Shown here: one piece after another, positions 10,559 through 53,068 of the stretch | Layout: each line of letters starts with the position of its first letter | Position numbering within the stretch: the stretch's first letter is position 1 | DNA from: a virus | Lineage: Duplodnaviria > Caudoviricetes | Strand: one strand, 5' to 3' | Virus record (IMG/VR): IMGVR_UViG_3300049740_002155 | DNA length: 64,000 bases | The notes under the pieces: model-generated | Databases searched by the model: none | What the model was told of the DNA's origin: nothing | What the model saw: the letters and a program-made list of their open reading frames with translations, nothing else | Translations under genes and position numbers: made by a program

Positions 10559-10577
10559 ATAGATATATATGTATTTA

Positions 10578-12000
<1,423 letters not shown>

Positions 12001-37588: not shown

Positions 37589-39205
37589 GTGGACATTATA
37601 GAGCATTATATAAAGAATTCATCTTTAGTTGATATCTCCAGTGATTTTGACGATGTATTATTTGAATCGACATTAAAAAATCATTTAGGAGATATGTTTA
37701 AAAGAAAAGACAAATTTATAGACATAGTAGATAGTGCAATTGCAGGTGACATCAATTTACTTGATGGTAAGGGAAAGGAGTTAAAGAAACCAAATGCAGA
37801 GCTATGGAAAACCTTAAAAAAACAACTTCAAAATGCCAAGAGTATAGAGGATATTAAAACATGGTCTAATCCACCTGGTTCAGAAAAAGGTGAATTTGAA
37901 AAATTATTTGGAGTAATTCCTTCTAATTTTGGAAAGGATCTAAATGGTCTAACAGGTAAATCTGGTGAACCAACAGGTGCAGAGTGGGAGCATTTAATTA
38001 CCTATCAATTTAATAAGTTAGTTGGTGCATCTGATCACAAGGAGTCTACCAAAGTTGCATTAGGATTTCCTAATTATTTAGAAACTGCAAAGAACGTAGC
38101 AGAAAACCTAAAAAAGGAAAGTGCAGTTGGTAGTGGTCAAATGACACAATTTGGTGGTGGTAGTAGTTCAAGTAATTGTTCTACTTGGTGGATTAACCAA
38201 GGTGGTTCAAACGGAACACCAAAAGCAGATATGATTACAAGTTCATGTGGTATATCGTTAAAAAAGAAAGGTGGTTCTCAACTAATGTCTGCGGGTACAG
38301 GTGAAACTTTGGCAACATTTAATACAGCACTTGGTTGGTTTAGTGGCGATAATGACGGTATCAAGAAAGTAAATGACCTTATAAATAAAATAGAAGATAA
38401 ATTTGATAAGATAACAACCCACTTAGGCAAACGAGAACTTGATAAACTATCTAAATTACCCGAGGATCAATGGCCAGAAAAAAGCAAGTCATCCATCGAG
38501 AAATATATTGAAGTGGAAGCATACCACAAAGAAATTAATCAGACTATTAAGGATTTTGATTTTCATAGTAACAAAAAATTTAGAGATTTCTTTGTTTACG
38601 AAGCAATGTCAGGACAAAGAAAATTTACAGGTGGGGAAAATGACGCAAGGGCAAGTTTGTGTGTAGAGTTTGATGGATCTACTGGTGCTTTATCAAAAGT
38701 TATTTCCACAACATCAGATGGTAAAAAGAATTTCACCGACCCACCCAAGGTTTCTTCTGATATTAGTAAACTTGCTTCTGGTGCAAAATTTTATGTTGCT
38801 TGGAAAAGTTCATCTGGTAATCCATATTCAACTTTTCGTGCAAATATATCCGAGGGACAAAATTCAACAATTGAAATTCCCACGATTTCGGAAATATTTA
38901 GAAAAACTTTAGCAGAAGACACTCTAATAATTGAATATAAGAAAAAACTTTTATCTGAAAATAAACAACTCAATGAGTTTCAGATACTAAAAAAGATGTG
39001 GTCTTCTGTAAAAGGTGCAGGTAAAAAGTTTCTGAATTGGATGCAGAGTATATACAAAAAGTTTTTGAAGAATATCAAAAAAACATTAAATAAAATTAAG
39101 AAACTTGGTAAAGATGCGTTTAATGCTGTTTTAAAGTTTGCAGGTATTGAGATTTCATCTGTGAGAGCAGATATTCCAAAAGACGTAGAGCAATTTATGT
39201 ATTGA
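37589..39205 (+). CDS. hypothetical protein with restriction-endonuclease-like core
   Basis: GAEWE...TPKADM...GISLKKKGGSQLMS resembles E..PD..(S)xK; GTG start after TATTTAT. Confidence 0.55.
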   Translation: MDIIEHYIKNSSLVDISSDFDDVLFESTLKNHLGDMFKRKDKFIDIVDSAIAGDINLLDGKGKELKKPNAELWKTLKKQLQNAKSIEDIKTWSNPPGSEKGEFEKLFGVIPSNFGKDLNGLTGKSGEPTGAEWEHLITYQFNKLVGASDHKESTKVALGFPNYLETAKNVAENLKKESAVGSGQMTQFGGGSSSSNCSTWWINQGGSNGTPKADMITSSCGISLKKKGGSQLMSAGTGETLATFNTALGWFSGDNDGIKKVNDLINKIEDKFDKITTHLGKRELDKLSKLPEDQWPEKSKSSIEKYIEVEAYHKEINQTIKDFDFHSNKKFRDFFVYEAMSGQRKFTGGENDARASLCVEFDGSTGALSKVISTTSDGKKNFTDPPKVSSDISKLASGAKFYVAWKSSSGNPYSTFRANISEGQNSTIEIPTISEIFRKTLAEDTLIIEYKKKLLSENKQLNEFQILKKMWSSVKGAGKKFLNWMQSIYKKFLKNIKKTLNKIKKLGKDAFNAVLKFAGIEISSVRADIPKDVEQFMY

Positions 39206-40795
39206 TTACTTCTTGTAAAACACAAAGATAGGTTCGTATTTTTGCAACTCTCCGTTTATCTTGCAACAATTCTTAACCGTTTCTGCTTTAACACCACGCA
39301 TTGTTGTCATAAGCATTTTAAGAGTTTCAACATACTCAAGTCCGTATTCCGCAAGAATATCACGACTATCTTTTTCTAATGGCATAAATCCATCTCCGTC
39401 TGCGATGTCTGCGATATTCCAAAGCAAGTATCTATCGTTCTTTAAATACTCGGCAGCCGTCTTTAAAGTAGGACGAAGAAAGTTGTCTCTCCAATCTTCA
39501 TACTCTGGAAACTTTTTGAAACTCTGAGATTCATCTGCTGAATATTGTTCACGATTAAAATATGGTGGACTCGTAAAAACTAAATCAAGTTTGCCTTTGT
39601 ATTTTTGGAAACTTGGATTGTTGGAAATTTCTTCACTTCCGTTTTGATAAACATCATACGTGTTACGGTGACCAAAGAACGGATTGCCTCCGTTTGTTTT
39701 GTCATTAAAGAAGTCGGCAAGATATTCGTAACGACTTTGATTTAGTTCGTCTATATAATTATCTGTGTTTGGATCAGTTCCTATATAATGAATTTGACGG
39801 TCGTGTACTGACATAGCACCAAGAATACGTCCACCCCAACCTGCACTTGGATCATATATATGAAGATTGCTTTTATCTTGAATGTGATCTGTGTACGTCT
39901 GATAAATATACTTTGCAGTCAACGGAGGAAAGTTTACTGCTGGTTGACTAAGACCAAGTTTAAATGCTTCCATTGCTGACGGAAAGATTCTTGAGTTCTT
40001 GTTGTAGTAACGAATACTGAATTTGAATTGTACTTCTTTTTCGTCTTCGATAATTACATCATTTATATTTTCTATATCGTCACCGAAGTTTGCAGTTCTT
40101 TCTAAATTTCTAATGTTGTTTAATTTAAGCAAACCTTCTTTGTATAATTTCTTGATTTGCTTTGCCGTTAACATTAAACTGCTTGCTTCATATGAATCAA
40201 ACTTTTTTTCTGTAAATAATTCTATTATCCAAAAATCATTGTCTGGGTGAAGGTGTTTTTCTTTTACAAAGTTACGAATCCATTGCTCTCCGTTTTCCGT
40301 TGGACACGGAACATCAAAATCATTTTTCTTTATTGTTTTTCCGTGGGCATAAAAAGAATCTCTACGAACTGTTCTTCTCATACAAGTATGAAAACTTTCA
40401 CGTTTAGCAGGATTGGCAAAGCAATCATAAACACTCCAAGATGTATGCTTACTTGAACCTATTTTAGTTTTAAGCATCGTTGGAAAGAACTGATCAACCA
40501 CAGTTGCAAACTTATTAAAGTTTTTGATGATAGTTTTTGTTCCATCCATTTCATCTGTATGTTGAAATTTGTAAACATCATAACCAGGCAACTTGTTAAA
40601 GTTTGCTATAATGTCTTTTTCGTTTTTACCTGTTCTTGGCGGAAGACCTTCATTGTCCCATGTTTCTACTATATAATTTCTAAGTTCATCAATCCACATT
40701 TCCAACTCTGCACCATTCTTTTGTAGCAGTTCGTGGAATGTTATATTTACTTTACATTCTGCTAAATTGTTTTTTTCGTAGAAATATTTTTTCAT
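39206..40795 (-). CDS. SPPY-type DNA amino-methyltransferase-like protein with large N-terminal domain
   Basis: AVNFPPLTAK, IYDPSAGWGGRILGA, YIGTDPN, LDLVFTSPPYFNREQYS; start MKKYF (40795). Confidence 0.85.
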   Translation of the reverse strand: MKKYFYEKNNLAECKVNITFHELLQKNGAELEMWIDELRNYIVETWDNEGLPPRTGKNEKDIIANFNKLPGYDVYKFQHTDEMDGTKTIIKNFNKFATVVDQFFPTMLKTKIGSSKHTSWSVYDCFANPAKRESFHTCMRRTVRRDSFYAHGKTIKKNDFDVPCPTENGEQWIRNFVKEKHLHPDNDFWIIELFTEKKFDSYEASSLMLTAKQIKKLYKEGLLKLNNIRNLERTANFGDDIENINDVIIEDEKEVQFKFSIRYYNKNSRIFPSAMEAFKLGLSQPAVNFPPLTAKYIYQTYTDHIQDKSNLHIYDPSAGWGGRILGAMSVHDRQIHYIGTDPNTDNYIDELNQSRYEYLADFFNDKTNGGNPFFGHRNTYDVYQNGSEEISNNPSFQKYKGKLDLVFTSPPYFNREQYSADESQSFKKFPEYEDWRDNFLRPTLKTAAEYLKNDRYLLWNIADIADGDGFMPLEKDSRDILAEYGLEYVETLKMLMTTMRGVKAETVKNCCKINGELQKYEPIFVFYKK

Positions 40796-40796
40796 A

Positions 40797-41618
40797 TTAT
40801 GCACCTACATTCCAAAATAAAGCACCTTCTTTTGCATATTCTTTTACAAACTTCCATGCTTTAGCATCATATGTTGGAGCAGATGGAAATGGTGGCATTT
40901 CATTTTCTTTTATTGCTTTATCAAACTGATATTCTGATCTGTAATATTTTGCTCGTCCTATTTCTCTTTCATTCATTTTATGTCCAACAGATACTACATT
41001 AACAGGTATCTCAGGAAAAGCAAGTTGTAAACCACGACTAATCGTTCCACTTGACCCAACACTCCAAATTTCACTTGGTGGATTTTCGGATAAAGCATTT
41101 CTTGCAACTTTAATAATACTTGCTACAACCGTTGGGTGTTCTAATCCGATTGGAAATTCCATTCTATTTTCTGGATCGTCTGCTACATATTTTTTTGCTC
41201 TTGATTTAGTAACTGATAACATTCCCATATTTACCCACTCGTATATAGCACCCAAGTCCATTCCTCTTTTTTGATATTCATGATAGTTTTCTGGATTGCG
41301 TTTTGCCATAAACAATACAACTTTTTTGTTGTATTTCTGTGCAACTGCCGGTAAAGATATTTGTGCGTAACCCGTTGCAGGACAACATCCAAATACAATT
41401 TCTTTTGCGGAAGTTTCACGAATGAGTTTATCTACGAAACGAATTTTACTTCCGTGGTTTAGTAGATCATCTCTAACCACATCAATTCCTTCGTAGTTCA
41501 TAATAATCGGTTTTGGATTTGGGTCTTCCCAATCTTTAACCAAATCTAACAATTGATCTTCACTCCACATATTACCTGTGTTGTCTTCGTATACTGATTC
41601 TATAAATTTTGATAACAT
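40797..41618 (-). CDS. PLP-dependent fold-type II enzyme (ACC deaminase / cysteine desulfhydrase-like)
   Basis: VVRDDLLNHGSKIR (candidate PLP Lys), GYAQISL, SVGSSGTISRGL phosphate loop, PTYDAKAW, LFWNVG; start 41618 from TAATG overlap. Confidence 0.8.
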   Translation of the reverse strand: MLSKFIESVYEDNTGNMWSEDQLLDLVKDWEDPNPKPIIMNYEGIDVVRDDLLNHGSKIRFVDKLIRETSAKEIVFGCCPATGYAQISLPAVAQKYNKKVVLFMAKRNPENYHEYQKRGMDLGAIYEWVNMGMLSVTKSRAKKYVADDPENRMEFPIGLEHPTVVASIIKVARNALSENPPSEIWSVGSSGTISRGLQLAFPEIPVNVVSVGHKMNEREIGRAKYYRSEYQFDKAIKENEMPPFPSAPTYDAKAWKFVKEYAKEGALFWNVGA

Positions 41619-42088
41619 TACCATGATTTTGTATTTACTTTAATTGCTCGTTCTTCTGATAACTCATATCCCATGAGTTCTGCTAAAATTCTTGTTCGTT
41701 TTGATGGTCCGGGTACTCCGAATGTATTCACCATGAAATAGCATTTTTTTGCTTTTGTATAATCCACATCTTCAAAGTTGGGAAATTGATCAACTGCCAA
41801 ATCAACAACAGAATAATCTGGCCACATAATAAACCTATGCAATCCATCGTCTCCAGGTATGCCAGGTAACTTATATGGTTTAGAACCACGTGGTGATAAA
41901 TAATAATAAACAAATTCTGCAATTACATAACAATAGTTTTTAGTTGGATTGTCGTGTGTCCACCCTTCTTTCATTAACTTTGTTTTTAGATGCTTTTTTC
42001 CCATAACACGAAGTGCATCATGTAAAGTTTGTTTATTGACACCTGCTAACTCATACATAGCTTGCAGTCGTTCTTCTGAGATTTTCAT
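41618..42088 (-). CDS. putative transglutaminase/papain-like Cys-His-Asp protein
   Basis: NYCYVIAE (Cys on a helix), LHRF (His), VVDLAVDQF (Asp) in the expected order. Confidence 0.55.
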   Translation of the reverse strand: MKISEERLQAMYELAGVNKQTLHDALRVMGKKHLKTKLMKEGWTHDNPTKNYCYVIAEFVYYYLSPRGSKPYKLPGIPGDDGLHRFIMWPDYSVVDLAVDQFPNFEDVDYTKAKKCYFMVNTFGVPGPSKRTRILAELMGYELSEERAIKVNTKSW

Positions 42089-43371
42089 TCAATATAATCG
42101 TCGGCATCTTTGGTGGGTGGATACAATGTACTACTTTCAACCAACCAGTCTCTAAAGTTTTGATTTGCTTTTAAATCAACAACCAGATGATAACGATCCT
42201 GTGATCCACCGTTAAATGCAGTATGTGGTTTCCTCATATCAAGATACCACAATTCTCCTTCTTTCATTTTATCAACCGTTTTTGTTCCGTCTGTGTTCCA
42301 AAGTGTGAATTGTACTTTTGGATTTGTTTGAATTGGGAAGTGAACTCTTGCCCATTGATTATCTGAAATACCTGCTTCTTTGTCTTGACGGTCTGTGTGA
42401 CGTTGTAACTCTCCTTCGCCACCCGCAAGTTTAAGAATTCTGATTCTTTCAAATTCATAAGGAAGAAGTTTTAAATATTCTTCTACTGCTGGTAGTTTTG
42501 CACGAAGTGGAGTATCTTCTACTTTCCATTTTAATTTTTCTGGATTATTCTTTTTCCACTTGTTGTTCATTTCACTTGGTTTGATAATGAAATCCCACTC
42601 ACCTCCATAACCAGATACTGTTACTCCTGACCATGAATCACTTTTATTGTAATTTGAATAATGATTAGAAAACTCGGAACTTACTTTATTTAATTGTTCC
42701 ATGATTTTTTTAGGATTAGGAACACCTGGCATTGCTAATCTTTGTAAGGCAATTTCTTGTGCAGGGTCTATTTGTGAGTGTTCACCACCTTTAAACCAAA
42801 ATCCATACATATCTGCGAAACTGCTTATAAGATTATCTTTTCTTGTATAACCAATAGATGCAAGAAGTTCACGAATTCTTTTGAGTTGCATATCACATTC
42901 AATGACTGTAACTCCTTCTTCAAAGAAGTTTCCTTTTGCTTCGTGCTTTTCAATTAGTTTACCTAACCATTCTTCGTAACCAGGATAACAAGCAACTTCT
43001 TGAATATAAGCATCATTTGAACTTAAAGTAATTTCACGACCTGTAAAACTTACTATCTTCTTTTTCTTGGAGTGCATTTTTGGAATATCAAAATATAAAA
43101 TACACGCACGAATAATTCCATTTTCATCTTCCACCCAATCAACTTTTTCATATGTATCTTCTTTATGACCAAGAAGTTTCTGATTCGTCATATTGTTTAT
43201 TTTTCTAAACGGATCACGTAATCTAGGTGAATCTTTATACGAGTCTTCTGGATGTTGTGTTTCCCAAAAGCAATTTAATAAGTTGTCGTAAATTGGACTA
43301 TCCTCATAGACCCACTTCTTTCCGTTGTGAAACGGCTTAGGATATTCAAGTTCAACATTTCTAAAATTCAT
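42085..43371 (-). CDS. GNAT-like N-terminal domain fused to an AspH-like 2OG-Fe(II) oxygenase
   Basis: C-terminal RIRILKL...RHTD...RVHFPI.TN...GELWYLD..KPHTAFNGG..RYHLVVD (HxD...H...R); N-terminal AYIQEVACYPG...LASIGY is only weakly GNAT-like. Confidence 0.7.
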   Translation of the reverse strand: MNFRNVELEYPKPFHNGKKWVYEDSPIYDNLLNCFWETQHPEDSYKDSPRLRDPFRKINNMTNQKLLGHKEDTYEKVDWVEDENGIIRACILYFDIPKMHSKKKKIVSFTGREITLSSNDAYIQEVACYPGYEEWLGKLIEKHEAKGNFFEEGVTVIECDMQLKRIRELLASIGYTRKDNLISSFADMYGFWFKGGEHSQIDPAQEIALQRLAMPGVPNPKKIMEQLNKVSSEFSNHYSNYNKSDSWSGVTVSGYGGEWDFIIKPSEMNNKWKKNNPEKLKWKVEDTPLRAKLPAVEEYLKLLPYEFERIRILKLAGGEGELQRHTDRQDKEAGISDNQWARVHFPIQTNPKVQFTLWNTDGTKTVDKMKEGELWYLDMRKPHTAFNGGSQDRYHLVVDLKANQNFRDWLVESSTLYPPTKDADDYIE

Positions 43372-43392
43372 CTATATATTATATAAACAAAT

Positions 43393-44298
43393 TTATTTGG
43401 CGTCAACTATTTTTTTGATATAATCTTCTAGTTTAATTTTTGCGTTCCAACCAAGATGTTGGTAGGTTAGAGATGGAATTGCTTTTCCGTAGAATCTTTC
43501 ACCACGTCTTTCTGGAATCATAATATGTTTATGATTAAACATTTTTGCTACATCAATTATTTTATGTGGAATTCCTGTGCCAAGTGGGTATTCTCCTTGT
43601 TGTCCTTTTGTGGCTGCCAATACAACCCCATTTACAATATCGTCTATATGTGTAAAATCTCTTGACTGATTACCCGGTTCTACGACAGTGAGTGGTTCTC
43701 CTTTGGAATATTGTTCTTCAAATATACCAATAACGGTTGCGTAATCACCCGTTCTTACTTGTCCTGGACCATAAGCATTATAGAAATAAGTGATTTCAAA
43801 TTTAAGATTAAACCATTCTGCATAATTGTTGATTAGTTCAACCATTTTTGCTTTCATCCACGCATACGGAGAAAGATTTTCGTCTTTACCATCATTACCA
43901 AATTTACTTGAACTTGCTGAATAAACTAACTTTGCTTTTTTTGCGACACAATAATCAAGAACCATTTTAGTTCCTTGCATATTATAGTCCCAACAATTAT
44001 CAAACGAATCAAAACTTGTTACGATTCTTGAAAACTCACCAAAGTGGAAAACAACATCTGGTTCGAAGGCATCTGCAATATCCATCTTGGTATTGGTTAC
44101 GTCAAATTTTTTCGGAATTAAAGTTTGAGTATCTTTATTAAGATAAGTTACTTTTTTACTTTTAATATGATTGCTTTCAAATCCACTACTATAATTGTCA
44201 ATGCTTATAATCTGAATGTTCTTATATTTTCGTATAAGTTTGCGTATAAGTGCAGTACCAACAAAACCTGCACCACCTGTTATCAAGACTTTATTCAT
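43393..44298 (-). CDS. NAD-dependent nucleotide-sugar epimerase/dehydratase
   Basis: VLITGGAGFVG, YSASSS, PYAWMK (YxxxK), YFYNAYGP, RDFTHIDD. Confidence 0.92.
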   Translation of the reverse strand: MNKVLITGGAGFVGTALIRKLIRKYKNIQIISIDNYSSGFESNHIKSKKVTYLNKDTQTLIPKKFDVTNTKMDIADAFEPDVVFHFGEFSRIVTSFDSFDNCWDYNMQGTKMVLDYCVAKKAKLVYSASSSKFGNDGKDENLSPYAWMKAKMVELINNYAEWFNLKFEITYFYNAYGPGQVRTGDYATVIGIFEEQYSKGEPLTVVEPGNQSRDFTHIDDIVNGVVLAATKGQQGEYPLGTGIPHKIIDVAKMFNHKHIMIPERRGERFYGKAIPSLTYQHLGWNAKIKLEDYIKKIVDAK

Positions 44299-44321
44299 AT
44301 AAATAAATAAATAGATTGAAA

Positions 44322-44729
44322 CTACTTCTTTTCTTTTAATCCAGTTAAATCACTTGAACTGCGTATTTTGTCACCGAGACCATCAACCATTTCAATGTTA
44401 TGTTTTTTACAAACAACACTTTCAGGGACTTCTCCGGTGCTTCTGTCTCCACCATTTGCAAAAATGTCTGGTTTGATTGCATCGAGAGAAGCACACACAC
44501 TTTTGTCTTCATCAATGCTGAGAAATGCTTCATCAACAATTCCAAGTGCTTCTACGATTTTTACTCGGTCTACTTCGTCCATAAATGGTTTGCCCTTTTT
44601 AAGAACACATTGATGATTGTTGTTTACGATAACAACAAGACGATCACCAAGTTTCTTTGCTAATTCAAGATATTCCAAATGCCCCACGTGAATTGGGTCA
44701 AAGTATCCACTAACTGCTACTGTTTTCAT
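44322..44729 (-). CDS. cytidylyltransferase-like nucleotidyltransferase
   Basis: VSGYFDPIHVGH, KKGKPFM, FANGGDR, KIRSSS; start MKTVAV (44729). Confidence 0.88.
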   Translation of the reverse strand: MKTVAVSGYFDPIHVGHLEYLELAKKLGDRLVVIVNNNHQCVLKKGKPFMDEVDRVKIVEALGIVDEAFLSIDEDKSVCASLDAIKPDIFANGGDRSTGEVPESVVCKKHNIEMVDGLGDKIRSSSDLTGLKEKK

Positions 44730-44733
44730 TATG

Positions 44734-45105
44734 TTACTCCGATTCGTGTTTTTCTGGACGATCATAATCGTCTTGGACTCTTACAATGTCATCTTCACCA
44801 AAATAAGTTCCTGTTTGAACCTCCACCAAAATCATATCTTCTGAATCACTTGGGTTTGCCATACGATGTTTTGCTCCGAGTGGAATCAATACGGTTTCAC
44901 CTGGTTTGTAATCTTCCGTGACATCATCTAAGGTTATTCTTGCCACACCACTAACAATTGTCCATGCTTCTTGTCGTTTGTGATGATACTGATAACTTAG
45001 TCTTTGTCCTGGTTTTACAAAGATGCGTTTAACTTTGCAATATTCTGCGTCTAAAAGGATTTCGTAATTTCCCCACGGTCTTATACTTTCGTCTTGTTTG
45101 CTCAT
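44734..45105 (-). CDS. mannose-6-phosphate isomerase-like cupin (ManC C-terminal type)
   Basis: RPWGNY, KVKRIFVKPGQRLSYQYHHKRQEAW, EVQTGTYFGEDDIVR. Confidence 0.9.
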   Translation of the reverse strand: MSKQDESIRPWGNYEILLDAEYCKVKRIFVKPGQRLSYQYHHKRQEAWTIVSGVARITLDDVTEDYKPGETVLIPLGAKHRMANPSDSEDMILVEVQTGTYFGEDDIVRVQDDYDRPEKHESE

Positions 45106-45109
45106 AATT

Positions 45110-45247
45110 TTATCCCCATCTGTCTGCTAAATCTTGTTCTGATATTTTATGTTTTTTTGGTTGTATGTATTTTATTGATTTGTTCAATATGATTATACTA
45201 TGTTTTTTTGTTTTAATAAATACTTTTTTTAGATTATCCATTTCCAT
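45110..45247 (-). CDS. possible small basic protein
   Basis: fills the gap between the DHH and cupin genes; start overlaps the upstream 3' end. Confidence 0.3.
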   Translation of the reverse strand: MEMDNLKKVFIKTKKHSIIILNKSIKYIQPKKHKISEQDLADRWG

Positions 45248-46190
45248 ATATATCTTCAAACTTATCAATAAATTTTTTAAGTTCTGTTTTTGGTAATTCA
45301 TTTATACCGGCTGCTTTTTCACGACCACCACCTGTTGGGAAACTTAAAGCAAGTTTACTCGCACCTACTGGATTGTCTTTTGGGGAACGAATGCTAATAC
45401 GATAATCATCTTCATTGATATTTGTTAAAATTGCAAATGCTTTGCTTGGATTGTCTGTGGTCTGCTTGTTACTATATATACCCGAGTATCTGACGGATGC
45501 TTTTGTGTCTGGGAGTAAAATTATGCTTCCGGTGTCCGATGAGTATAATACTTCTGAGGAATTTAGTTCCTGCTCATCCAACTTCATCTGTGAGTTTATT
45601 TTGTTATATAGTTCAGATTTTTTTCTATATTCAAACGGAGATTCATAATCCTTTATGTCAAGATATACATCTTTAGGGTGAGCAGTTAAGTCTGACTCTT
45701 GATTTCCATACCCATTGTAATTCAATGTTTCTCCAATTTCTTTTAAATAACTCATGTATACTTCATTAAAACATGGATTTAGTTTTTCTGCTTGTTCGTG
45801 TAAGTTATCTCCGTATGCTCCACATATTGTCCAAGGACGATGTAACCCATCAATATATTTGTCCACCAAAATGTTGGTACAACAATTTGGGTTTGTATCT
45901 ACAAATATTTCAAAGTTGTCTCCGAGTTTAGTTTCACCGGGTTCGTGATGATCAAACCAACGAATTGTATTTCCGTTACTTAAAATTTTATTAACATGAT
46001 CTTTGTTTGATAATAACGATACATCAAATACGGTAAACTTTGATTTTTTTATGTCGGTGCAATGTCTCAGCAACTCAACATCTCGTTTGACTCCGGTAAA
46101 TACTTCCGAGTTTTGTGGATAGTGCATTCTATACTGATGTAGACTTATTATTCCGTCTGCATCTCCGTTGAAAAAATCAAAGTATTTCAT
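45234..46190 (-). CDS. DHH-family phosphoesterase-like protein
   Basis: FNGDADG, FDVS, WFDHH, C-terminal SIRSP...GGGREKAAG (DHHA1). Confidence 0.85.
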   Translation of the reverse strand: MKYFDFFNGDADGIISLHQYRMHYPQNSEVFTGVKRDVELLRHCTDIKKSKFTVFDVSLLSNKDHVNKILSNGNTIRWFDHHEPGETKLGDNFEIFVDTNPNCCTNILVDKYIDGLHRPWTICGAYGDNLHEQAEKLNPCFNEVYMSYLKEIGETLNYNGYGNQESDLTAHPKDVYLDIKDYESPFEYRKKSELYNKINSQMKLDEQELNSSEVLYSSDTGSIILLPDTKASVRYSGIYSNKQTTDNPSKAFAILTNINEDDYRISIRSPKDNPVGASKLALSFPTGGGREKAAGINELPKTELKKFIDKFEDIYGNG

Positions 46191-47056
46191 TTCTTTGTTT
46201 TCTTTTCTAACCCAACATCCGCAGAAACTGCACGTCCTTTATCTGCCATCCAATCTTTTTCTGGACGATCAAGTTCTTCGTTTCTTTTTATTACCGCATC
46301 AAGTATAGGAGTTGGTATTGAATTATCTTCTGCAAATTTTGCCAAAGCATTTGTGTCTTTTGGAAAGCAGGTTCCTCCAAATCCACGATGACCATCGTGA
46401 CCAGGAACTTTAGTATGACCAGTTCCGATTCTTTTATCTTGTGTTGCAATGCAACGCACGTTTTCATAATCAATGTCAAGTTCTGAGCATATTGATTCAA
46501 GTTCGTTAAAGAAACCAACCTTTACACTTAGAAATACATTTTTTAAATACTTTATCATTTCCGCTTCACTCGGTTTGCACTGAATTACATCTTTGTTTAC
46601 TACCGAACCACTTCCGTTATTATATGCAAGTTCAAACATACGTTTCATTTTTTCATATAAAAAAACATCCGTTGAACCAAGTATCCATTGGTCGCAATTT
46701 TTAAAATCTTCTTTCCAGTTTTTTTCAGTAAGAAATTCGGGCATAAATGCAACATCAAGTTCCTCACTTGTTCCAGGTGGAATAGTAGAACGAAGTACAA
46801 TATATTTTGAGTCATCAATTTCTTGAATTTCTTCGCAAACAGAACGCACAATGTCAAGATTTGCACTTCCGTCTGAATTCATTGGAGTAGGAACTGCAAC
46901 GAAAATAATTTCGGACTCCTCCACAAATGTTTCTATATCCAATGTTTTTGGATCTCTCTTTTCGGGAACCAAATCCCATACTAATACTTCTACGTGTGGT
47001 CTAAGCAATGTCATCGCATGACCCACGAAACCATTTCCAACAACTCCAATCTTCAT
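46187..47056 (-). CDS. ugd: UDP-glucose/GDP-mannose dehydrogenase family protein (short form)
   Basis: IGVVGNGFVG, FVAVPTP, RSTIPPG, PEFL, AEMIKY, GFGGTCFPKD; start 47056 fits the GGAGA SD spacing. Confidence 0.9.
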   Translation of the reverse strand: MKIGVVGNGFVGHAMTLLRPHVEVLVWDLVPEKRDPKTLDIETFVEESEIIFVAVPTPMNSDGSANLDIVRSVCEEIQEIDDSKYIVLRSTIPPGTSEELDVAFMPEFLTEKNWKEDFKNCDQWILGSTDVFLYEKMKRMFELAYNNGSGSVVNKDVIQCKPSEAEMIKYLKNVFLSVKVGFFNELESICSELDIDYENVRCIATQDKRIGTGHTKVPGHDGHRGFGGTCFPKDTNALAKFAEDNSIPTPILDAVIKRNEELDRPEKDWMADKGRAVSADVGLEKKTKK

Positions 47057-47121
47057 ATAACGCATTCTCCGTTTTTTAAGTGCGATATAACCTTTTATTA
47101 TAAATATAAAAAAAGATATTA

Positions 47122-47931
47122 TTACTTAAATTTTCTTTTAATTCTATCGATTGCGTTTTTGTCGGAAACATTTGTGGAATTACCTAATGATGAACCAAAT
47201 ATTTTTAAAATTTCGTTTTTACTAAATTTCTTTTCGTCATCTGCTGAACGGATTTTTTCTTTTGCATCATGAACTCCTTTAATTATATTTGATGTCATTT
47301 GACTGCTTGTAATTCCTAACCAAGTAATAAGTCCTGGTATTTTACTTACGATCCAACCAATAAGTTGTGTAATTATCGGAAGAAGTGCAGGTCCTGCGAT
47401 TACTAAAACTGCAATTGCACCGACAATTCCAAACGTTGCAGTTAACCATCCCCAGAAAGAATCAAAGAATCCTTCTTTTTGTTCTTTTGCTTTTAATTCT
47501 CCTAAACTAATTAGTTTTTCTTCTGTATCCTTTAGGTCATGACCAAGCATTTGTTTTCTTCGTGCAAGTTTTATTACATCTTCTTCTCGGTCTGTCAAAT
47601 TTTTTACTGCTATTTCGTTTTCATTTACAACATCTTCAATGTGAATTTTATCTCCTGGTTGTGGAAGACCTACAATTTCCTGTGCCTTTCGTGTAAGATT
47701 AAGTGCAACTAAGTCTTCTTTTGATTTGTTTTCTGACAAAGAAAGTGCGTCAACTGCACCTGATATATATGCACTTGTGTGACGATCAAGTTCTGATTCT
47801 TTTCTTGATATTTCCCCTGCAATTTCTTGTCTATCTTGTTTAAGTCCCCAATTTGAAATCGTAAGGCATCCACTTGTAGAAAATGATAATATTAAAACAG
47901 AGAATACAACAACAATTTTTTTATAATCCAT
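47122..47931 (-). CDS. predicted lipoprotein with coiled coil and C-terminal membrane segment
   Basis: MDYKKIVVVFSVLILSFSTSG-C signal/lipobox; hydrophobic FWGWLTATFGIVGAIAVLVIAGPALLPII. Confidence 0.7.
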   Translation of the reverse strand: MDYKKIVVVFSVLILSFSTSGCLTISNWGLKQDRQEIAGEISRKESELDRHTSAYISGAVDALSLSENKSKEDLVALNLTRKAQEIVGLPQPGDKIHIEDVVNENEIAVKNLTDREEDVIKLARRKQMLGHDLKDTEEKLISLGELKAKEQKEGFFDSFWGWLTATFGIVGAIAVLVIAGPALLPIITQLIGWIVSKIPGLITWLGITSSQMTSNIIKGVHDAKEKIRSADDEKKFSKNEILKIFGSSLGNSTNVSDKNAIDRIKRKFK

Positions 47932-48808
47932 GATTATATATAGTGTCGTTAATCTTTTTTTTAAAAAAACCAAGTTCCATATAAAAGTGTTTATTTGCGT
48001 TTTCTCTGAAGTTAATGATATTGTTTTTTAAAGATGAATCTGGTTGTTGGTAAAATCTATCCTCAACAACAACCATGTTTTTTAAAATGTATTGTTGTAC
48101 ATTCATGTTTTTTGATTTCATATATTTACAACATTCCATCACAAATGTATCATCGGGTCCATACCCTTTAAATGTATTTGGTATTCCAATGAGTTTCAAT
48201 AAATTTGCGGATATAACATTGAACCACCCACCTCCCCATTTGAATGTGTTACAGGATGTAAGTTTTACATCTCCATGATTTTTTTGTATAATCTTATTTG
48301 GATTGACTTTCTTATAGAAGTTATGAGATTTATTTAAATAAGTTTCATTTACGATACAATCCCATGTTGTGTCCCATAGTTTTACAACCTGTGGTGATAT
48401 TACAAAAAAATCACTATTTTGTCCTACGAGCTCAATAGCATTAATTTGATTTGCTAATATTTTTTTATCAAAATACAAGTCACAGTCTAAAAATAATATA
48501 TAGTCAGATTGCTTTGCTGTTGAAATTGTGCTTCTTCTGTGCTCATTGACTCCTAGAAAATTTTTATCACTGATTATTTTAAAATTAGGTTTTATCTTTG
48601 AGTTTAATTCACACTTAGAAAAAATGCTTATTAGATTTGATATATCAATTGATTTCATATTAACAATCTCTGTATTGATATTCAAGGAAACATCAAGTAT
48701 TATTTCTTCTAAATTTTTAACAAAATATGTGGCATCATTCAAACTCTCTACGATGCGTTGAAAGTTTTTAATTTCATGTGGAAATAAATGAATAGATATA
48801 AAAATCAT
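47921..48808 (-). CDS. GT-A fold glycosyltransferase-like protein
   Basis: LFLDCD (DxD), GGGWF, GYGPDDTF (resembles GT7 GWGxED). Confidence 0.75.
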   Translation of the reverse strand: MIFISIHLFPHEIKNFQRIVESLNDATYFVKNLEEIILDVSLNINTEIVNMKSIDISNLISIFSKCELNSKIKPNFKIISDKNFLGVNEHRRSTISTAKQSDYILFLDCDLYFDKKILANQINAIELVGQNSDFFVISPQVVKLWDTTWDCIVNETYLNKSHNFYKKVNPNKIIQKNHGDVKLTSCNTFKWGGGWFNVISANLLKLIGIPNTFKGYGPDDTFVMECCKYMKSKNMNVQQYILKNMVVVEDRFYQQPDSSLKNNIINFRENANKHFYMELGFFKKKINDTIYNHGL

Positions 48809-50496
48809 GATAACAAAAGTTGCCAAGAATATAAAAGATATATTGCTTCCTCACACTTTCCATTATTGTTTGAAACGGATGCAAGGAGAGATTTGTATTT
48901 TTTAAGAGGATTTTTTAATATTACATTTTTACCGACATAAAAGCATTGCTTCGGATCATAGTCAACTGGTTTGGATGAATGATTCCATATATTATATCCA
49001 TCCGTTGTTTTCTTATACTCAATTGTATGATTTCCTATATATCGTTTTTGCCATGTGTCAAATGAATAATTTGAAAATTTGATCTCATTTTTTCGTGTGA
49101 TATGCTTATGTGGATTAAGTTTAATTGTGTTTCGTGTTTTTTCAAAAGGTGTATACTTGCATTCATCGTTTAAAGAATTAGTTTCGTTTGTTAGGTAATT
49201 GACTTGATCAAAATATTTTTTGTATACAAGTTCGTTTACAAAGAAAACTACATCTGGTAAATTTTCGTAATTTTCTATAATATAGTTCAAATAAAACTTT
49301 CCGTAATTGTAGTGTTTTTCTTTTTTTATATTGTCGTATAAGTGTGTTTCACATTTTATCTTTTTTAAATTAAAACTTTTGTTAAAAAATCTAACACCAC
49401 ACACCGAGAATTCACCATTTTTTTTAGTCAATTCTTTTTTTGATTTGGGTTTTATGTTTTTTAACTTATTTACAAAATCAAATGAATTGTCATTAATTGA
49501 AAACTCACGATAATATTTCTTTATGAGCACAAGAATTTTGTTTTTAAAATGATAATTTTCTAAACTATTTTGTAAGTGATCATCTTCTTTCCGTGAATAG
49601 AAATAGTTTTTAAGTAGTTCAAGTAGTTTTTTGTTTTTAATTTTATATAATGTTTTGGTTTCTTCTAAATCACAACTTGGATTATACTTAGATGCCCTCA
49701 GTAAATGCTCACGACTTGAATACTGACGATTTATAAAATTTCCATGATATCCAATTTCAAACTCAACGCCAAGTGGTTCTATGCTTATTACCTTTTTTGT
49801 TGTGTGTCTCCATTTAATAAAATCTTTTTTAAATTCGTCCAATTCTTTAAAGAATCTATCATCTGATATAAATTGTGTAAATTCTTTAAATTCCAAATAG
49901 CCAATGAAGTTGAGGAAATCTCCTGAACCAAAGACTGCCTTGTCATATAAAGGTTTGTCTGTATCTTTAAATAGTTTGCTTGGGTATATATAGCCATAAC
50001 CCGGTTCCCCTTTTCTGTATAATAATATGTCATATAGCGAATGCTCGTTTCTTGATATAAAATATGACATTGAACAATCAAGAGCATAATCACCAAAGTG
50101 ATTTTTATGCTTTCTCATAGTGGAGCAAATTTGTACGATTTTATTTTCATTTAGTGTAGATTTAAGTTTATCAAACCAATTTGGGTTAACCGGAACTATG
50201 TCTGCATCTACCCACCCCACAAAATCATATTTATTTTTTATTTTATTCAATCCGATGTTAAGTAGTTGTTCCTTTTGCCAAAATATTTGAGTTGATTTTA
50301 TGCTTGTAATATTGTGACAATTTTTATTTACTCTGTAAATTGAATTGTCTTGATATGCTTCAATTACATATAAATCATAAAGTTCATCTTTATTCATTTT
50401 GTCGTAAAACATCAAAAAGTTTATATATTTTGATAGATAGTTACACGGGTTGAAATAACAACAAACCAAAGCAATCTTATTTTTTAATACTTCCAT
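48805..50496 (-). CDS. two-domain glycosyltransferase-like protein
   Basis: FWQKEQLLNIG, GWVDADI (DxD), GSGD; C-terminal YLNYIIENYENLPDVVFF (DUF3431-like). Confidence 0.7.
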   Translation of the reverse strand: MEVLKNKIALVCCYFNPCNYLSKYINFLMFYDKMNKDELYDLYVIEAYQDNSIYRVNKNCHNITSIKSTQIFWQKEQLLNIGLNKIKNKYDFVGWVDADIVPVNPNWFDKLKSTLNENKIVQICSTMRKHKNHFGDYALDCSMSYFISRNEHSLYDILLYRKGEPGYGYIYPSKLFKDTDKPLYDKAVFGSGDFLNFIGYLEFKEFTQFISDDRFFKELDEFKKDFIKWRHTTKKVISIEPLGVEFEIGYHGNFINRQYSSREHLLRASKYNPSCDLEETKTLYKIKNKKLLELLKNYFYSRKEDDHLQNSLENYHFKNKILVLIKKYYREFSINDNSFDFVNKLKNIKPKSKKELTKKNGEFSVCGVRFFNKSFNLKKIKCETHLYDNIKKEKHYNYGKFYLNYIIENYENLPDVVFFVNELVYKKYFDQVNYLTNETNSLNDECKYTPFEKTRNTIKLNPHKHITRKNEIKFSNYSFDTWQKRYIGNHTIEYKKTTDGYNIWNHSSKPVDYDPKQCFYVGKNVILKNPLKKYKSLLASVSNNNGKCEEAIYLLYSWQLLLS

Positions 50497-51109
50497 CTGA
50501 ATTGTAATTGCTTGAATATAAACTATTATTATACTCTTGTTTTTGTATACCCTTAATATGCATTAGATCAAGGCCAACATCTTTTGGCAAATTTGTTGAG
50601 GATGTGTGTCCGGAGATATATTCATGAACTGGACGAGTCCATCTTATAGACTTTTTGTTTTTAAAAATTCTTGTTTGATAATCTGGATAATTAATTCTAC
50701 TCTGTGTGTCAATTTTCCAATTCCACTTTTTAATATGATGTGTTTGAATTCCTTTTACGAAGTTAATTCGTGGAACTCTAAATAATTCTATTTCGTTATT
50801 TGCTATCAATATTTTTTTAATGTTCAATAGAAGTAGTTCACTTGGATATTCATCTGCATCAATTTGAAATATATATTCACCGTTACACCTCTCTATTAAA
50901 TAATTTTTATGCTTTGCATAGTCTTTGTTTAATTTATGATAATATACATTTTCATGCTTTTCTAAAATATTTTTCGTTTCATCGTTAGTTGAATAATCGT
51001 CTAAAATTACTACTTCATCATTTAAATCTTTTTTTGAATTTAGTAGTTTTAAAAGTTGATCTAAGCACTCAACCTCGTTATGTGTGCAGATTGCGTATGA
51101 TATATTCAT
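50477..51109 (-). CDS. GT2 family glycosyltransferase
   Basis: ISYAICTHNE, LDDYSTN, FQIDADE, YPDYQTRIF, VHE. Confidence 0.88.
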   Translation of the reverse strand: MNISYAICTHNEVECLDQLLKLLNSKKDLNDEVVILDDYSTNDETKNILEKHENVYYHKLNKDYAKHKNYLIERCNGEYIFQIDADEYPSELLLLNIKKILIANNEIELFRVPRINFVKGIQTHHIKKWNWKIDTQSRINYPDYQTRIFKNKKSIRWTRPVHEYISGHTSSTNLPKDVGLDLMHIKGIQKQEYNNSLYSSNYNSDGSIKK

Positions 51110-51810
51110 TTTTCTTCTATGGGTGGTATTTCCGAAGAAGTTGCTTCTGCGTCTTTTACGAAATCTTCAACTTCTCTAAATACTTTTACAAAGGTATTCA
51201 CATCACCAAATCTTTCTAATACAACACTTTTAAATTTTTTATCGGATATTTTATCTAACTTAAACCCCAAGGCCTCTTCAACTATCTTCTTCTCTCTCTG
51301 CAATTCATTGATATTATCTTGTCTACTTATTAATGTTTGTTGCATATCTTTTTTACCAGAAAACAACTTTGAGAAATCTAGATATCCAAGTTTTATTTGA
51401 GTCATGTTTGTTGTAATATAAGTACGATAACATTCCCTTTTTTGCAGTATCCTTTTTATCGTGGACGAATAAAATGGTTGAGGTCGATTTATTATTTCTT
51501 TGACTGGTGATTTTATTTCATATCTTCTTTTTAGCAAACTGATAGTATCTGTAACCAGTATGTTATTTAAAAAAGTTTTAAATTCTGTCCAAGGTAATAT
51601 CTCTAAATTTAATCCGTGTAATTTAAGTGATTTTTGATCACGATATGTATTCAGTACAAAAACAATCCTAAAAAGTTTTCTTCGTGTCGTTTTATCTTCA
51701 TCGGATGGGTTGTATTTAAATGTAATAACTTGTCCAGGTTTTATTCTGGCTACATTTGTGTTTTTAAAACCACCAACTAATCTTGTTAAATATGCTCTGT
51801 AAAAACTCAT
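51106..51810 (-). CDS. hypothetical protein, possibly a distant T4 gp2-like DNA end protector
   Basis: PGQVITFKYNP...LHGLNLEILP...ECYRTYI; TATTTATA upstream; function call is weak. Confidence 0.45.
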   Translation of the reverse strand: MSFYRAYLTRLVGGFKNTNVARIKPGQVITFKYNPSDEDKTTRRKLFRIVFVLNTYRDQKSLKLHGLNLEILPWTEFKTFLNNILVTDTISLLKRRYEIKSPVKEIINRPQPFYSSTIKRILQKRECYRTYITTNMTQIKLGYLDFSKLFSGKKDMQQTLISRQDNINELQREKKIVEEALGFKLDKISDKKFKSVVLERFGDVNTFVKVFREVEDFVKDAEATSSEIPPIEEK

Positions 51811-51831
51811 TGCATATATAAATATATAGAA

Positions 51832-53067: not shown

Positions 53068-53068
53068 T

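What the first reader, a model, noticed from the sequence alone, without database searches (positions are those of the whole stretch)
39206..43371. Coupled four-gene operon resembling an uncharacterised DNA hypermodification pathway
Seen: four minus-strand genes joined by ATGA, TAATG and TAA-T-ATG junctions. They encode a GNAT-like/AspH-type 2OG-Fe(II) oxygenase fusion (HTD...H...R), a Cys-His-Asp protein, a fold-II PLP enzyme (GSKIR) and an SPPY amino-MTase with a large extra N-terminal domain. Known: PLP enzymes and acetyltransferases tailor hypermodified thymidines in Pseudomonas phages M6 and PaMx11, Mu Mom is a GNAT acting on adenine, and TET/JBP 2OG oxygenases oxidise methylated bases. 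No dUMP hydroxymethylase, 5hmU kinase or aGPT-Pplase is visible in this window. Inference: the MTase-like enzyme adds a SAM-derived group (methyl or aminocarboxypropyl) to the exocyclic amine of A or C, which the other enzymes oxidise, decarboxylate/deaminate or acylate into a new modified base.
Basis: partly seen in the sequence, partly recalled or inferred. Interest (0 to 1): 0.82.

Follow-up and report, generated by a model that had tools for sequence, protein, structure and literature searches.

The report
Methylase-linked phage DNA hypermodification gene set
A marine T4-like phage carries four tightly packed genes, one of them a close relative of an enzyme proven to trim amino acids attached to phage DNA, that recur together and fused to one another in many uncultured phages and probably build an undescribed chemical decoration on a DNA base.

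Summary
Four overlapping minus-strand genes encode a GNAT-fold/AspH-type 2OG oxygenase fusion, a YunG-like Cys-His-Asp protein, a short fold-II PLP enzyme, and an SPPY amino-methyltransferase-fold protein with a 290-residue N-terminal domain of unknown fold.

- The PLP protein is a homologue of Pseudomonas phage M6 gp52, the PLP decarboxylase shown experimentally to act on an amino acid attached to thymine in DNA. Both match phrog_7093, hhalign gives 98% probability, and the catalytic Lys aligns.
- Of 22 non-redundant viral loci with a PLP homologue and enough flank, 17 have a full-length methylase-like gene within 3.5 kb, 16 have the oxygenase and 14 have both.
- Natural fusions link methylase+PLP, methylase+GNAT/oxygenase, oxygenase+YunG and YunG+PLP.
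- In a mycobacteriophage the oxygenase homologue follows an amino acid:DNA transferase gene.
- No gene of the known 5-hydroxymethyl-uracil route was found.

Best reading: a DNA hypermodification pathway in which the methylase-fold enzyme installs a SAM-derived handle that the other enzymes tailor. The chemistry and the target base are inferred, not shown.

The closest relatives (methylase 83% identical) lack the other three genes, so those three behave as an add-on cassette.

This scan found the same module earlier on other DNA. I found no paper describing it.

The parts
42085..43371 (-). P0001, 428 aa: divergent GNAT-fold domain (residues 1-198) fused to an AspH/proline-hydroxylase-type Fe(II)/2OG oxygenase (residues 202-404)
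   Evidence: Pfam PF05118 E 1.1e-9. AlphaFold model pLDDT 92.3. VIA-align Z 15 to AspH and proline hydroxylases and Z 11-12 to GNATs. H325, D327, H383 and R393 are invariant. The GNAT-like domain has its own invariant motifs: RLRDPFRK, SSFAD and E..D.Q.
41618..42088 (-). P0002, 156 aa: YunG-like small protein with a conserved Cys53-His84-Asp96 set
   Evidence: Weak PF24585 hit for P0002 itself (E 0.01). 160 relatives in the exhaustive HMMER search. Conserved residues in A2. Homologues are fused to PALP, AspH and 5'-nucleotidase domains and reach the YunG cut-off. The Atlas neighbours are YunG/Phage_YunG-like clusters.
40797..41624 (-). P0003, 275 aa (probable start Met3 at 41618): fold-type II PLP enzyme of the M6 gp52 / ViI gp226 family (phrog_7093)
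   Evidence: phrog_7093 E 9.8e-40; M6 gp52 matches the same PHROG at 2.2e-159. hhalign of A1 against M6 gp52 gives probability 98.2, E 3.2e-14, 221 columns, with K60 aligned to the SKIR lysine of gp52. The best PDB profile hit is 1J0A with the lysine aligned.
39206..40804 (-). P0004, 532 aa from GTG (probable ATG start at 40795, giving 529 aa): amino-methyltransferase-fold enzyme (motif I at 318-326, FTSPPYF at 410-416) with a conserved N-terminal domain of about 290 residues and unknown fold
   Evidence: PF01555 E 5.7e-5, below the cut-off. phrog_12517 and phrog_498 match. More than 2,300 homologues. Invariant motifs. Model pLDDT 86. Structural matches to Trm11/TrmN/Trm14 (Z 14-15) and to AFDB clusters auto-named N4-cytosine DNA MTase. 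The N-terminal domain has no PDB sequence match.
43378..43406 (-). sigma70-like promoter match TTGACG-17-TATAAT (11 of 12), ending 7 nt before the P0001 ATG; a possible own promoter for the cassette
   Evidence: This is a consensus match only; the total count of such sites in the region equals the shuffle expectation.

Best explanation
The four genes form a methylase-linked DNA hypermodification module of a T4-like marine phage.

Proposed mechanism:
1. P0004 has the fold and the motifs (motif I and SPPY) of the enzymes that alkylate exocyclic amino groups of bases. It binds phage DNA and installs a SAM-derived group on a base. This step is inferred. The preferred reading is the 3-amino-3-carboxypropyl part of SAM on N4 of cytosine or N6 of adenine, because the PLP enzyme needs a primary-amine amino acid substrate. 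Minimal versions of the module contain only the methylase-fold and PLP genes.
2. P0003 is a homologue of the proven DNA-acting decarboxylases M6 gp52 and ViI gp226. It decarboxylates the appended amino acid to an amine. The homology is shown; the activity is inferred.
3. The oxygenase domain of P0001 hydroxylates the side chain. Its GNAT-fold domain acylates the free amine, or binds the substrate. Both are inferred.
4. The YunG-like Cys-His-Asp protein performs an unknown thiol-dependent step, such as hydrolysis or transfer.

The likely benefit is protection of phage DNA from host nucleases, as with other hypermodifications. P0001-P0003 behave as an optional tailoring cassette that travels next to the methylase-fold gene.
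For: (1) Homology to a tested enzyme. P0003 and M6 gp52 both belong to phrog_7093. hhalign gives 98.2% probability with the catalytic Lys, the SSGT loop and the C-terminal PFPxxPxYDxKAW...FWN(V/I)G motif all aligned. PMC8989533 shows that M6 gp52 and ViI gp226 decarboxylate amino acid:nucleobase conjugates in DNA.

(2) Conserved neighbourhood. All 12 loci found with P0003 carry the P0004-like and AspH-like genes, in two different orders and in different genomic contexts. Among 22 non-redundant loci with at least 3 kb on both sides, 17 have a full P0004-like gene within 3.5 kb and 2 more have a partial one. Sixteen have the AspH-like gene, 14 have both and 5 have YunG.

(3) Natural fusions.
- Erythrobacter phage vB_EliS_R6L gp1 is ParB + MTase with the PLP domain embedded.
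- P0185 is a PF01555 MTase fused to P0001-like residues 89-424. Its contig also carries genes of 160, 271 and 544 aa with MTase-like features.
- P0402 is AspH + YunG.
- P0381, P0393 and P0426 are YunG + PALP.
- An 815-aa AFDB entry named as a PLP enzyme matches the P0004 MTase domain.

(4) DNA context. P0004 orthologues sit between PolB and the clamp loader in other phages. Module neighbours include dCMP deaminase, the gp45 clamp, gp46-like SbcC and UvsW.

(5) A second DNA link for the oxygenase. In Mycobacterium phage LilMcDreamy the P0001 homologue (gp4) directly follows an amino acid:DNA transferase (PF18724, E 2.7e-12) and a DpdA-like gene.

(6) All catalytic motifs are intact and invariant.

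(7) Precedents in the literature. A DNA methyltransferase homologue in a cyanophage transfers carboxymethyl from a SAM analogue (PMC12783734). The GNAT enzyme Mom puts glycine on adenine N6 in DNA (PMC13219725). An acetyltransferase caps the amine in PaMx11 (PMC8989533).
Against: No experiment bears on this module, so the product, the base and the donor group are unknown.

The nearest relatives have a P0004 orthologue 83% identical but no P0001-P0003, so P0004 works alone there and may be a plain methyltransferase. If it only methylates, the source of the amino acid for the PLP enzyme is unexplained.

The best solved-structure neighbours of the P0004 catalytic domain are tRNA N2-guanine methyltransferases (Trm11/TrmN/Trm14, Z 14-15), not DNA methyltransferases. 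P0004 itself is below the PF01555 gathering score.

The GNAT-like domain has no recognisable acyl-CoA motif and no sequence similarity to Mom or to any PDB chain.

Identity of P0003 to M6 gp52 is only about 24-30%, so the reaction type may differ.

The module abuts a nucleotide-sugar island in this genome.
Confidence: 0.6

Rival explanations
1. This is DNA hypermodification, but with a different installing enzyme. The GNAT-fold domain of P0001 puts an amino acid on an exocyclic amine of a DNA base, in the manner of Mom, using aminoacyl-tRNA or an acyl donor. The AspH domain and the PLP enzyme then tailor it. P0004 only methylates, either the base or the appended amine.
For: Mom is a GNAT that transfers glycine from Gly-tRNA to adenine N6 in dsDNA (PMC13219725). 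P0001 has a GNAT fold with strongly conserved basic and acidic motifs. This would explain why a P0004 orthologue can stand alone in relatives. Extra small methyltransferases (Methyltransf_23) sit in some modules.
Against: Minimal modules contain the PLP and methylase-fold genes with no AspH/GNAT gene within 8 kb: loci L076, L092, L094 and L095, plus Erythrobacter phage gp1 and Microcystis phage Mae-JY30. The GNAT domain therefore cannot be the general installer. It shows no sequence similarity to Mom (hhalign probability 0.08%).
Confidence: 0.13
2. P0004 is an ordinary m4C or m6A DNA methyltransferase. The other three enzymes act on free small molecules, such as amino acids or SAM by-products like ACC or homoserine derivatives, and are merely co-located with it.
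For: The SPPY motif and AFDB neighbours auto-named N4-cytosine methyltransferase. P0004 orthologues occur without the trio. The closest solved relatives of the oxygenase domain are free-amino-acid hydroxylases (proline cis-4-hydroxylase 4P7W, E 2e-11). The best PDB profile match for P0003 is an ACC-deaminase homologue.
Against: Covalent fusions of MTase with PLP and of MTase with GNAT/AspH are hard to explain by co-location alone. The nearest characterised relative of P0003 acts on polymeric DNA, not on a metabolite. The adjacency survives changes of gene order and of genomic context.
Confidence: 0.12
3. The target is RNA, for example the phage's or the host's tRNA. This would be an acp- or amino-acid-type tRNA base modification, tailored as in hydroxywybutosine synthesis.
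For: The top solved-structure matches of the P0004 catalytic domain are the tRNA m2G methyltransferases Trm11, TrmN and Trm14 (Z 14.3-15.4). From established knowledge, the wybutosine pathway combines an MTase-fold acp transferase (TYW2) with a 2OG hydroxylase (TYW5).
Against: Fusion partners are ParB-type DNA-binding domains and PF01555 DNA methylases. The module sits in DNA replication and nucleotide-metabolism gene blocks. The PLP homologue and the LilMcDreamy neighbour (an amino acid:DNA transferase) both act on DNA.
Confidence: 0.08
4. The genes belong to the neighbouring nucleotide-sugar and glycosyltransferase island and tailor a glycan or a virion protein.
For: P0001 starts 21 nt after an NAD-dependent epimerase gene, in a co-directional array with cytidylyltransferase, cupin, Ugd and glycosyltransferase genes. 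GNAT and oxygenase enzymes are common in sugar tailoring.
Against: The same sugar island exists without P0001-P0003 in the closest relatives. In other phages the module lies next to baseplate or replication genes with no sugar genes nearby.
Confidence: 0.05

Closest known systems
Thymidine hypermodification pathways of Pseudomonas phage M6, Salmonella phage ViI and Pseudomonas phage PaMx11 (PMC8989533, PMC5889632)
   Same: An amino-acid-derived group on a DNA base is tailored after replication. P0003 is a true homologue of the PLP decarboxylases M6 gp52 and ViI gp226. An acetyltransferase-fold domain is present, as in PaMx11 gp48.
   Different: No dUMP hydroxymethylase, 5-hmdU DNA kinase, amino acid:DNA transferase or radical SAM isomerase was found in the 161-kb record or in 97 related loci. 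The constant partner here is an amino-methyltransferase-fold protein, plus an AspH-type oxygenase and a YunG-like thiol protein. None of these occurs in the known pathways. The target is therefore probably not thymine C5.
CmoA/CmoX/CmoY 5-carboxymethylcytosine system of Synechococcus phage S-B43 (PMC12783734)
   Same: In a T4-like marine phage, a DNA methyltransferase homologue transfers a non-methyl group from a SAM-type donor to make a handle that is then elaborated.
   Different: CmoX is a C5-cytosine methyltransferase homologue that uses carboxy-SAM made by CmoA. Here the enzyme is of the exocyclic-amine (SPPY) type. I did not search for CmoA, and none appeared among the annotated neighbours. 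The tailoring enzymes are a PLP enzyme and a 2OG oxygenase, not an amide ligase.
Phage Mu Mom (PMC13219725)
   Same: A GNAT-fold enzyme is involved in placing an amino-acid-derived group on an exocyclic amine of a DNA base.
   Different: There is no detectable sequence similarity between the P0001 GNAT-like domain and Mom. Mom acts alone, whereas this is a multi-enzyme set.
Phage TET/5mYOX plus C5-methyltransferase systems (PMC8256090)
   Same: A methyltransferase is paired with an Fe(II)/2OG oxygenase in phage DNA hypermodification.
   Different: The oxygenase here belongs to the AspH/proline-hydroxylase branch (PF05118), not TET/JBP. The methyltransferase is of the amino type, not the C5 type.
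Hydroxywybutosine synthesis in tRNA (TYW2 acp transferase, TYW5 hydroxylase); from established knowledge, not tested here
   Same: The logic is the same: an MTase-fold enzyme uses SAM as an amino-acid (acp) donor, and a cupin-type 2OG oxygenase then hydroxylates the side chain.
   Different: It acts on RNA, not DNA, the families are unrelated at the sequence level, and there is no PLP step.

Membership tests
M6 gp52 / ViI gp226 PLP decarboxylases of DNA-linked amino acids (phrog_7093) | Sequence membership in the family profile | tested here: met
   P0003 matches phrog_7093 at E 9.8e-40 over residues 42-275. M6 gp52 matches the same profile at 2.2e-159. hhalign probability is 98.2%, E 3.2e-14.
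M6 gp52 / ViI gp226 PLP decarboxylases of DNA-linked amino acids (phrog_7093) | Catalytic lysine for the internal aldimine (K36 in M6 gp52) and the phosphate-binding loop | tested here: met
   K60 is invariant in 15 sequences and aligns with the SKIR lysine of gp52. The SSGT loop and the C-terminal PFP..P.YD.KAW motif also align.
M6 gp52 / ViI gp226 PLP decarboxylases of DNA-linked amino acids (phrog_7093) | Decarboxylase activity on an amino acid:nucleobase conjugate in DNA | not testable with these tools
   This needs purified enzyme and a modified DNA substrate.
5-hmdU-based thymidine hypermodification pathway | dUMP hydroxymethylase, 5-hmdU DNA kinase and amino acid:DNA transferase encoded by the phage | tested here: not met
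   PF00303, PF18724, PF18746, M6 gp51 and M6 gp54 gave no match in the 161-kb record. The record is estimated 80% complete, and two of the Pfam searches had no positive control. There were zero tblastn hits in 97 related loci (1.32 Mb), where M6 gp52 hit 78 times.
Exocyclic-amine (N6-A / N4-C) methyltransferases, PF01555-like | Motif IV (S/D/N)PP(Y/F) and SAM-binding motif I on a class I Rossmann fold | tested here: met
   FTSPPYF (410-416) and D318-S320-G322-W323-G325-R326 are invariant in 29 sequences. The fold matches class I methyltransferases.
Exocyclic-amine (N6-A / N4-C) methyltransferases, PF01555-like | Pfam gathering score reached | tested here: inconclusive
   P0004 scores 23.6 bits against a cut-off of 26.7. 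Orthologues in L022 (30.9 bits) and L024 (29.0 bits) pass, and many homologues carry a precomputed PF01555 hit.
Exocyclic-amine (N6-A / N4-C) methyltransferases, PF01555-like | Transfers a methyl group to DNA | not testable with these tools
   Neither the donor group (methyl or aminocarboxypropyl) nor the substrate (DNA or RNA) can be read from sequence.
Aspartyl/asparaginyl beta-hydroxylase family (PF05118) | Profile match above the cut-off, a double-stranded beta-helix fold, an HxD...H iron triad and a 2OG-binding Arg | tested here: met
   38.7 bits against a cut-off of 22.6. Z 15.1-15.3 to human AspH. H325, D327, H383 and R393 are invariant.
GNAT acyltransferases | GNAT fold | tested here: met
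   Residues 1-198 align to many GNATs at Z 10.5-11.9, with 135-161 residues at 3.0-4.0 A. One related Atlas cluster carries PF00583 in 71% of its members (a lead only).
GNAT acyltransferases | Sequence profile match and the acyl-CoA pyrophosphate-binding motif (Q/R-x-x-G-x-G/A) | tested here: not met
   No Pfam GNAT hit. The PDB profile search found nothing. The beta4-alpha3 loop reads CYPGYE, without the canonical motif.
Mom-type DNA-modifying GNAT | Sequence similarity to Mu Mom | tested here: not met
   hhalign probability 0.08%.
YunG / Phage_YunG-like (PF24585, PF24591) | Profile match above the cut-off | tested here: inconclusive
   P0002 scores 16.5 bits against a cut-off of 27. Its homologue P0378 reaches 36.1 bits. 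The Atlas neighbours are YunG-like clusters. The family has no known function.

The most novel reading that the evidence does not exclude
The P0004 family is a DNA aminocarboxypropyl transferase. On this reading, an amino-methyltransferase-fold enzyme uses SAM as an amino-acid donor to alkylate N4 of cytosine or N6 of adenine in phage DNA. The M6 gp52-like PLP enzyme then decarboxylates the adduct to an aminopropyl base, which is optionally hydroxylated and acylated. That would be a new class of DNA base modification, made without the 5-hydroxymethylpyrimidine route and widespread in marine and freshwater T4-like phages.
Probability: 0.3. Interest if true: 0.88.

Novelty: new variant of a known kind. 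Interest (0 to 1): 0.72.

Why it matters
All characterised amino-acid-derived phage DNA hypermodifications start from 5-hydroxymethyl-pyrimidines or, for Mom, from aminoacyl-tRNA. This module pairs a proven type of DNA-tailoring PLP enzyme with a methyltransferase-fold enzyme instead. It therefore probably marks an undescribed route and an undescribed modified base.

It is not rare. About 460 stretches in IMG/VR encode a relative of the PLP protein, which also has nearly 1,000 protein clusters at 90% identity. The methylase-like protein has thousands of relatives, many from ocean metagenomes.

A new base would matter in three ways: for phage-host arms races (restriction and CRISPR evasion), for interpreting sequencing signals from environmental viromes, and as a source of enzymes for site-specific DNA functionalisation.

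The hypothesis can be tested directly with four small genes.

Tried and rejected
- Nucleotide search of the four genes against cultured phages found nothing. Protein searches found only partial matches: the MTase domain in Staphylococcus, Bacteroides and Mycobacterium phages, and the AspH domain in LilMcDreamy.
- An early reading that synteny is not conserved, based on L004-L009 where the MTase-like gene stands alone, was withdrawn after the wider survey.
- An early guess that the genome is a prasinovirus or giant virus (HSP70, PolB, many MTases) was rejected. Relatives carry T4-type clamp loader, gp45, gp46, UvsW and gp25 genes, and PolB is closest to the T4-like Microcystis phage Mel-JY01 and to cyanomyophages.
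- Single-sequence PDB search with P0003 gave nothing useful.
- The PDB profile search with the P0002 alignment gave only spurious protein A repeats.
- PDB profile searches with the P0004 N-terminal domain and the P0001 GNAT-like domain found no meaningful match.
- NCBIfam found nothing for any of the four proteins.
- The Atlas holds no structure model for any of them, so no structure-based Atlas search was possible.
- Complex prediction of P0004 with P0003 gave no verdict (score 0.00).
- The literature search for YunG was swamped by the surname.
- Searches for the combination of AspH, PLP, methyltransferase and phage hypermodification found no paper describing this module.

Full report
**What is there**

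The window is bases 3388-67387 of a 161-kb IMG/VR virus record. Its gene content is that of a distant T4-like phage. It has a family B DNA polymerase, 47% identical to that of Microcystis phage Mel-JY01 and about 32% to cyanomyophage gp43. It also has DnaK/HSP70 and several amino-methyltransferases. Relatives carry clamp loader, gp45, gp46-like, UvsW and gp25 genes.

Their junctions read ATGA, TAATG (or a 7-nt overlap) and TAA-T-ATG. They end a long co-directional array that begins with a nucleotide-sugar and glycosyltransferase island. An 11/12 sigma70-like site lies just upstream of the first gene, but such sites are no more frequent in the region than in shuffled sequence.

**The four proteins**

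- P0001 (428 aa) was modelled at pLDDT 92.
  - Residues 202-404 form an AspH/proline-hydroxylase-type double-stranded beta-helix. VIA-align gives Z 15-15.7 to proline cis-4-hydroxylase, human AspH and a nucleoside-antibiotic hydroxylase, and the Foldseek E-value is 2e-11. H325, D327, H383 and R393 are invariant.
  - Residues 1-198 have a GNAT fold (Z about 11-12 to many acetyltransferases) but no GNAT sequence signature. This domain has its own invariant motifs. It shows no similarity to Mu Mom.
- P0002 (156 aa) belongs to the uncharacterised YunG/Phage_YunG-like group. His84 and Asp96 are invariant and Cys53 is nearly so.
- P0003 (275 aa) is a short fold-type II PLP protein with invariant Lys60.
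- P0004 (532 aa) was modelled at pLDDT 86.
  - Its C-terminal domain is a class I methyltransferase with invariant motif I and FTSPPYF.
  - Its closest solved structures are the N2-guanine tRNA methyltransferases Trm11, TrmN and Trm14 (Z 14-15).
  - Its closest predicted structures are clusters auto-named N4-cytosine DNA methyltransferase.
  - The conserved N-terminal 290 residues match nothing in PDB by sequence.

**The key identification**

P0003 matches phrog_7093 at 1e-39. Pseudomonas phage M6 gp52 matches the same PHROG at 2e-159. A profile of P0003 relatives aligns to gp52 with 98.2% hhalign probability over 221 columns. The aligned features are the PLP lysine, the SSGT loop and a distinctive C-terminal motif.

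Lee et al. (PMC8989533) purified M6 gp52 and ViI gp226 and showed that they are PLP-dependent decarboxylases of amino acids attached to thymine in polymeric DNA. They also report modelling ViI gp226 on PDB 1J0A, which is the top hit of my own profile search. So P0003's nearest characterised relatives act on DNA, not on free metabolites.

**Are the genes functionally linked?**

At first it seemed not. The closest relatives (P0004 orthologue 83% identical) have the epimerase gene followed directly by the methylase-like gene. More distant phages place the methylase-like gene between PolB and the clamp loader. The wider survey reversed that impression.

- All 12 viral loci found with P0003 carry the oxygenase and methylase-like genes. 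They occur either in the window's order or as MTase-oxygenase-YunG-PLP next to baseplate genes.
- I took 80 loci found with the P0003 family profile and collapsed them to 37 clusters at 90% identity. Twenty-two of these have at least 3 kb on both sides. Of those 22:
  - 17 have a full-length P0004-like gene within 3.5 kb on the same strand, and 2 more have a partial one;
  - 16 have the oxygenase;
  - 14 have both;
  - 5 have YunG;
  - 3 have neither.
- Natural fusions tie all four together.
  - Methylase with an embedded PLP domain and an N-terminal ParB domain: Erythrobacter phage vB_EliS_R6L gp1.
  - PF01555 methylase with the GNAT/oxygenase protein: P0185.
  - Oxygenase with YunG, and YunG with PLP.
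- In Mycobacterium phage LilMcDreamy the P0001 homologue lies directly after an amino acid:DNA transferase (PF18724) and a DpdA-like gene. This is a second, independent link between this oxygenase family and amino-acid-decorated DNA.

**What it is not**

The record has no thymidylate-synthase-family gene, no amino acid:DNA transferase, and no homologue of the M6 DNA kinase. The record is estimated 80% complete, and some of these searches lacked a positive control.

Across 97 related loci (1.32 Mb), M6 gp52 finds 78 homologues. M6 gp51, gp53, gp54, gp58 and the LilMcDreamy transferase find none. The module is therefore not a copy of the 5-hydroxymethyl-uracil pathway.

**Mechanism**

Shown:
- homology of P0003 to DNA-acting PLP decarboxylases;
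- intact catalytic motifs in all four proteins;
- conserved linkage and fusions.

Inferred:
- The methylase-fold enzyme creates the handle on an exocyclic amine. The SPPY motif favours cytosine N4.
- The handle is probably the aminocarboxypropyl part of SAM. Two-gene modules (methylase-fold plus PLP) have no other visible source of an amino acid.
- P0003 decarboxylates the handle to an aminopropyl group.
- The oxygenase hydroxylates the side chain, and the GNAT-like domain caps the amine.
- The role of YunG is unknown.

Precedents exist for each idea:
- a DNA methyltransferase homologue that transfers carboxymethyl (PMC12783734);
- the GNAT enzyme Mom aminoacylating adenine N6 (PMC13219725);
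- an acetyltransferase capping the amine in PaMx11 (PMC8989533);
- from general knowledge, the acp transferase TYW2 and the hydroxylase TYW5 in tRNA.

Because a near-identical P0004 stands alone in the nearest relatives, plain methylation by P0004 remains a serious alternative. I give the DNA-hypermodification reading about 0.6 overall and the specific aminocarboxypropyl chemistry about 0.3.

**Rivals**

I considered four:
- a Mom-like installation by the GNAT domain (0.13);
- an ordinary methylase plus unrelated metabolite enzymes (0.12);
- an RNA target (0.08);
- membership of the neighbouring sugar island (0.05).

The fusions, the DNA-related contexts and the absence of the trio from an otherwise identical sugar island in relatives argue against the last three.

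**Novelty**

Five literature searches found no description of this module. Earlier follow-ups in this same scan reached the same reading on other genomes. I saw those notes only after my own identification of the M6 gp52 homology. They are not independent evidence, but they show that the module is recurrent.

I class it as a new variant of a known kind: phage DNA hypermodification with amino-acid-derived groups. It is widespread and can be tested directly.

Noticed in passing
window 43378-43406 (-): A near-consensus sigma70-like promoter (TTGACG-17-TATAAT, 11/12) ends 7 nt before the ATG of P0001. It would give a leaderless or nearly leaderless transcript for the cassette. The overall number of promoter-like sites in the region equals the shuffle expectation.
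   Followed up: no
window 37589-39205 (+): A 538-aa gene ends base-to-base against the stop codon of P0004 (convergent, zero gap). It has no Pfam, PHROG or NCBIfam match. A homologue about 30% identical holds the same position in relatives L010-L014.
   Followed up: partly
window 43393-54328 (-); L008/L009: The nucleotide-sugar and glycosyltransferase island (epimerase, cytidylyltransferase, ManC-type cupin, DHH protein, Ugd, DUF3431, glycosyltransferases) is conserved in the closest relatives. Those relatives also carry a sulfotransferase (PF03567) between the DHH and cupin genes, which the window lacks.
   Followed up: partly
window 22720-24204 (-) and 29824-31050 (-): There are two more amino-methyltransferase genes. 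One is a 494-aa PF01555 protein (E 7e-32). The other is a 408-aa paralogue of the P0004 catalytic domain (35% identity over residues 291-501).
   Followed up: partly
window 13348-15279 (+): A full-length DnaK/HSP70 gene (PF00012, E 2.7e-255) sits in a T4-like phage. IMG/VR classes the record as a provirus, although its gene content is that of a lytic T4-like phage.
   Followed up: no
L106 (Mycobacterium phage LilMcDreamy) 1-3759: The leftmost genes form a cluster that looks like another uncharacterised DNA modification set: ParB-like gp1, a queuine tRNA-ribosyltransferase/DpdA-like gp2, an amino acid:DNA transferase gp3 (PF18724) and a P0001-like oxygenase gp4.
   Followed up: partly
protein P0472 (684 aa, metagenomic): A fusion of a 5'-nucleotidase/metallophosphoesterase with a YunG-like domain. 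It hints that YunG-like proteins handle nucleotide-type substrates.
   Followed up: no
L029-L031, about 8780-11990: Close relatives of the window carry two tandem full-length P0004-like genes after the PLP gene; the window has one.
   Followed up: no
L022 6468-9412; L055 8780-9331: Some versions of the module hold extra tailoring genes: a JmjC/cupin protein, a second small 2OG oxygenase and a Methyltransf_23 methyltransferase. This suggests combinatorial variation of the final product.
   Followed up: no
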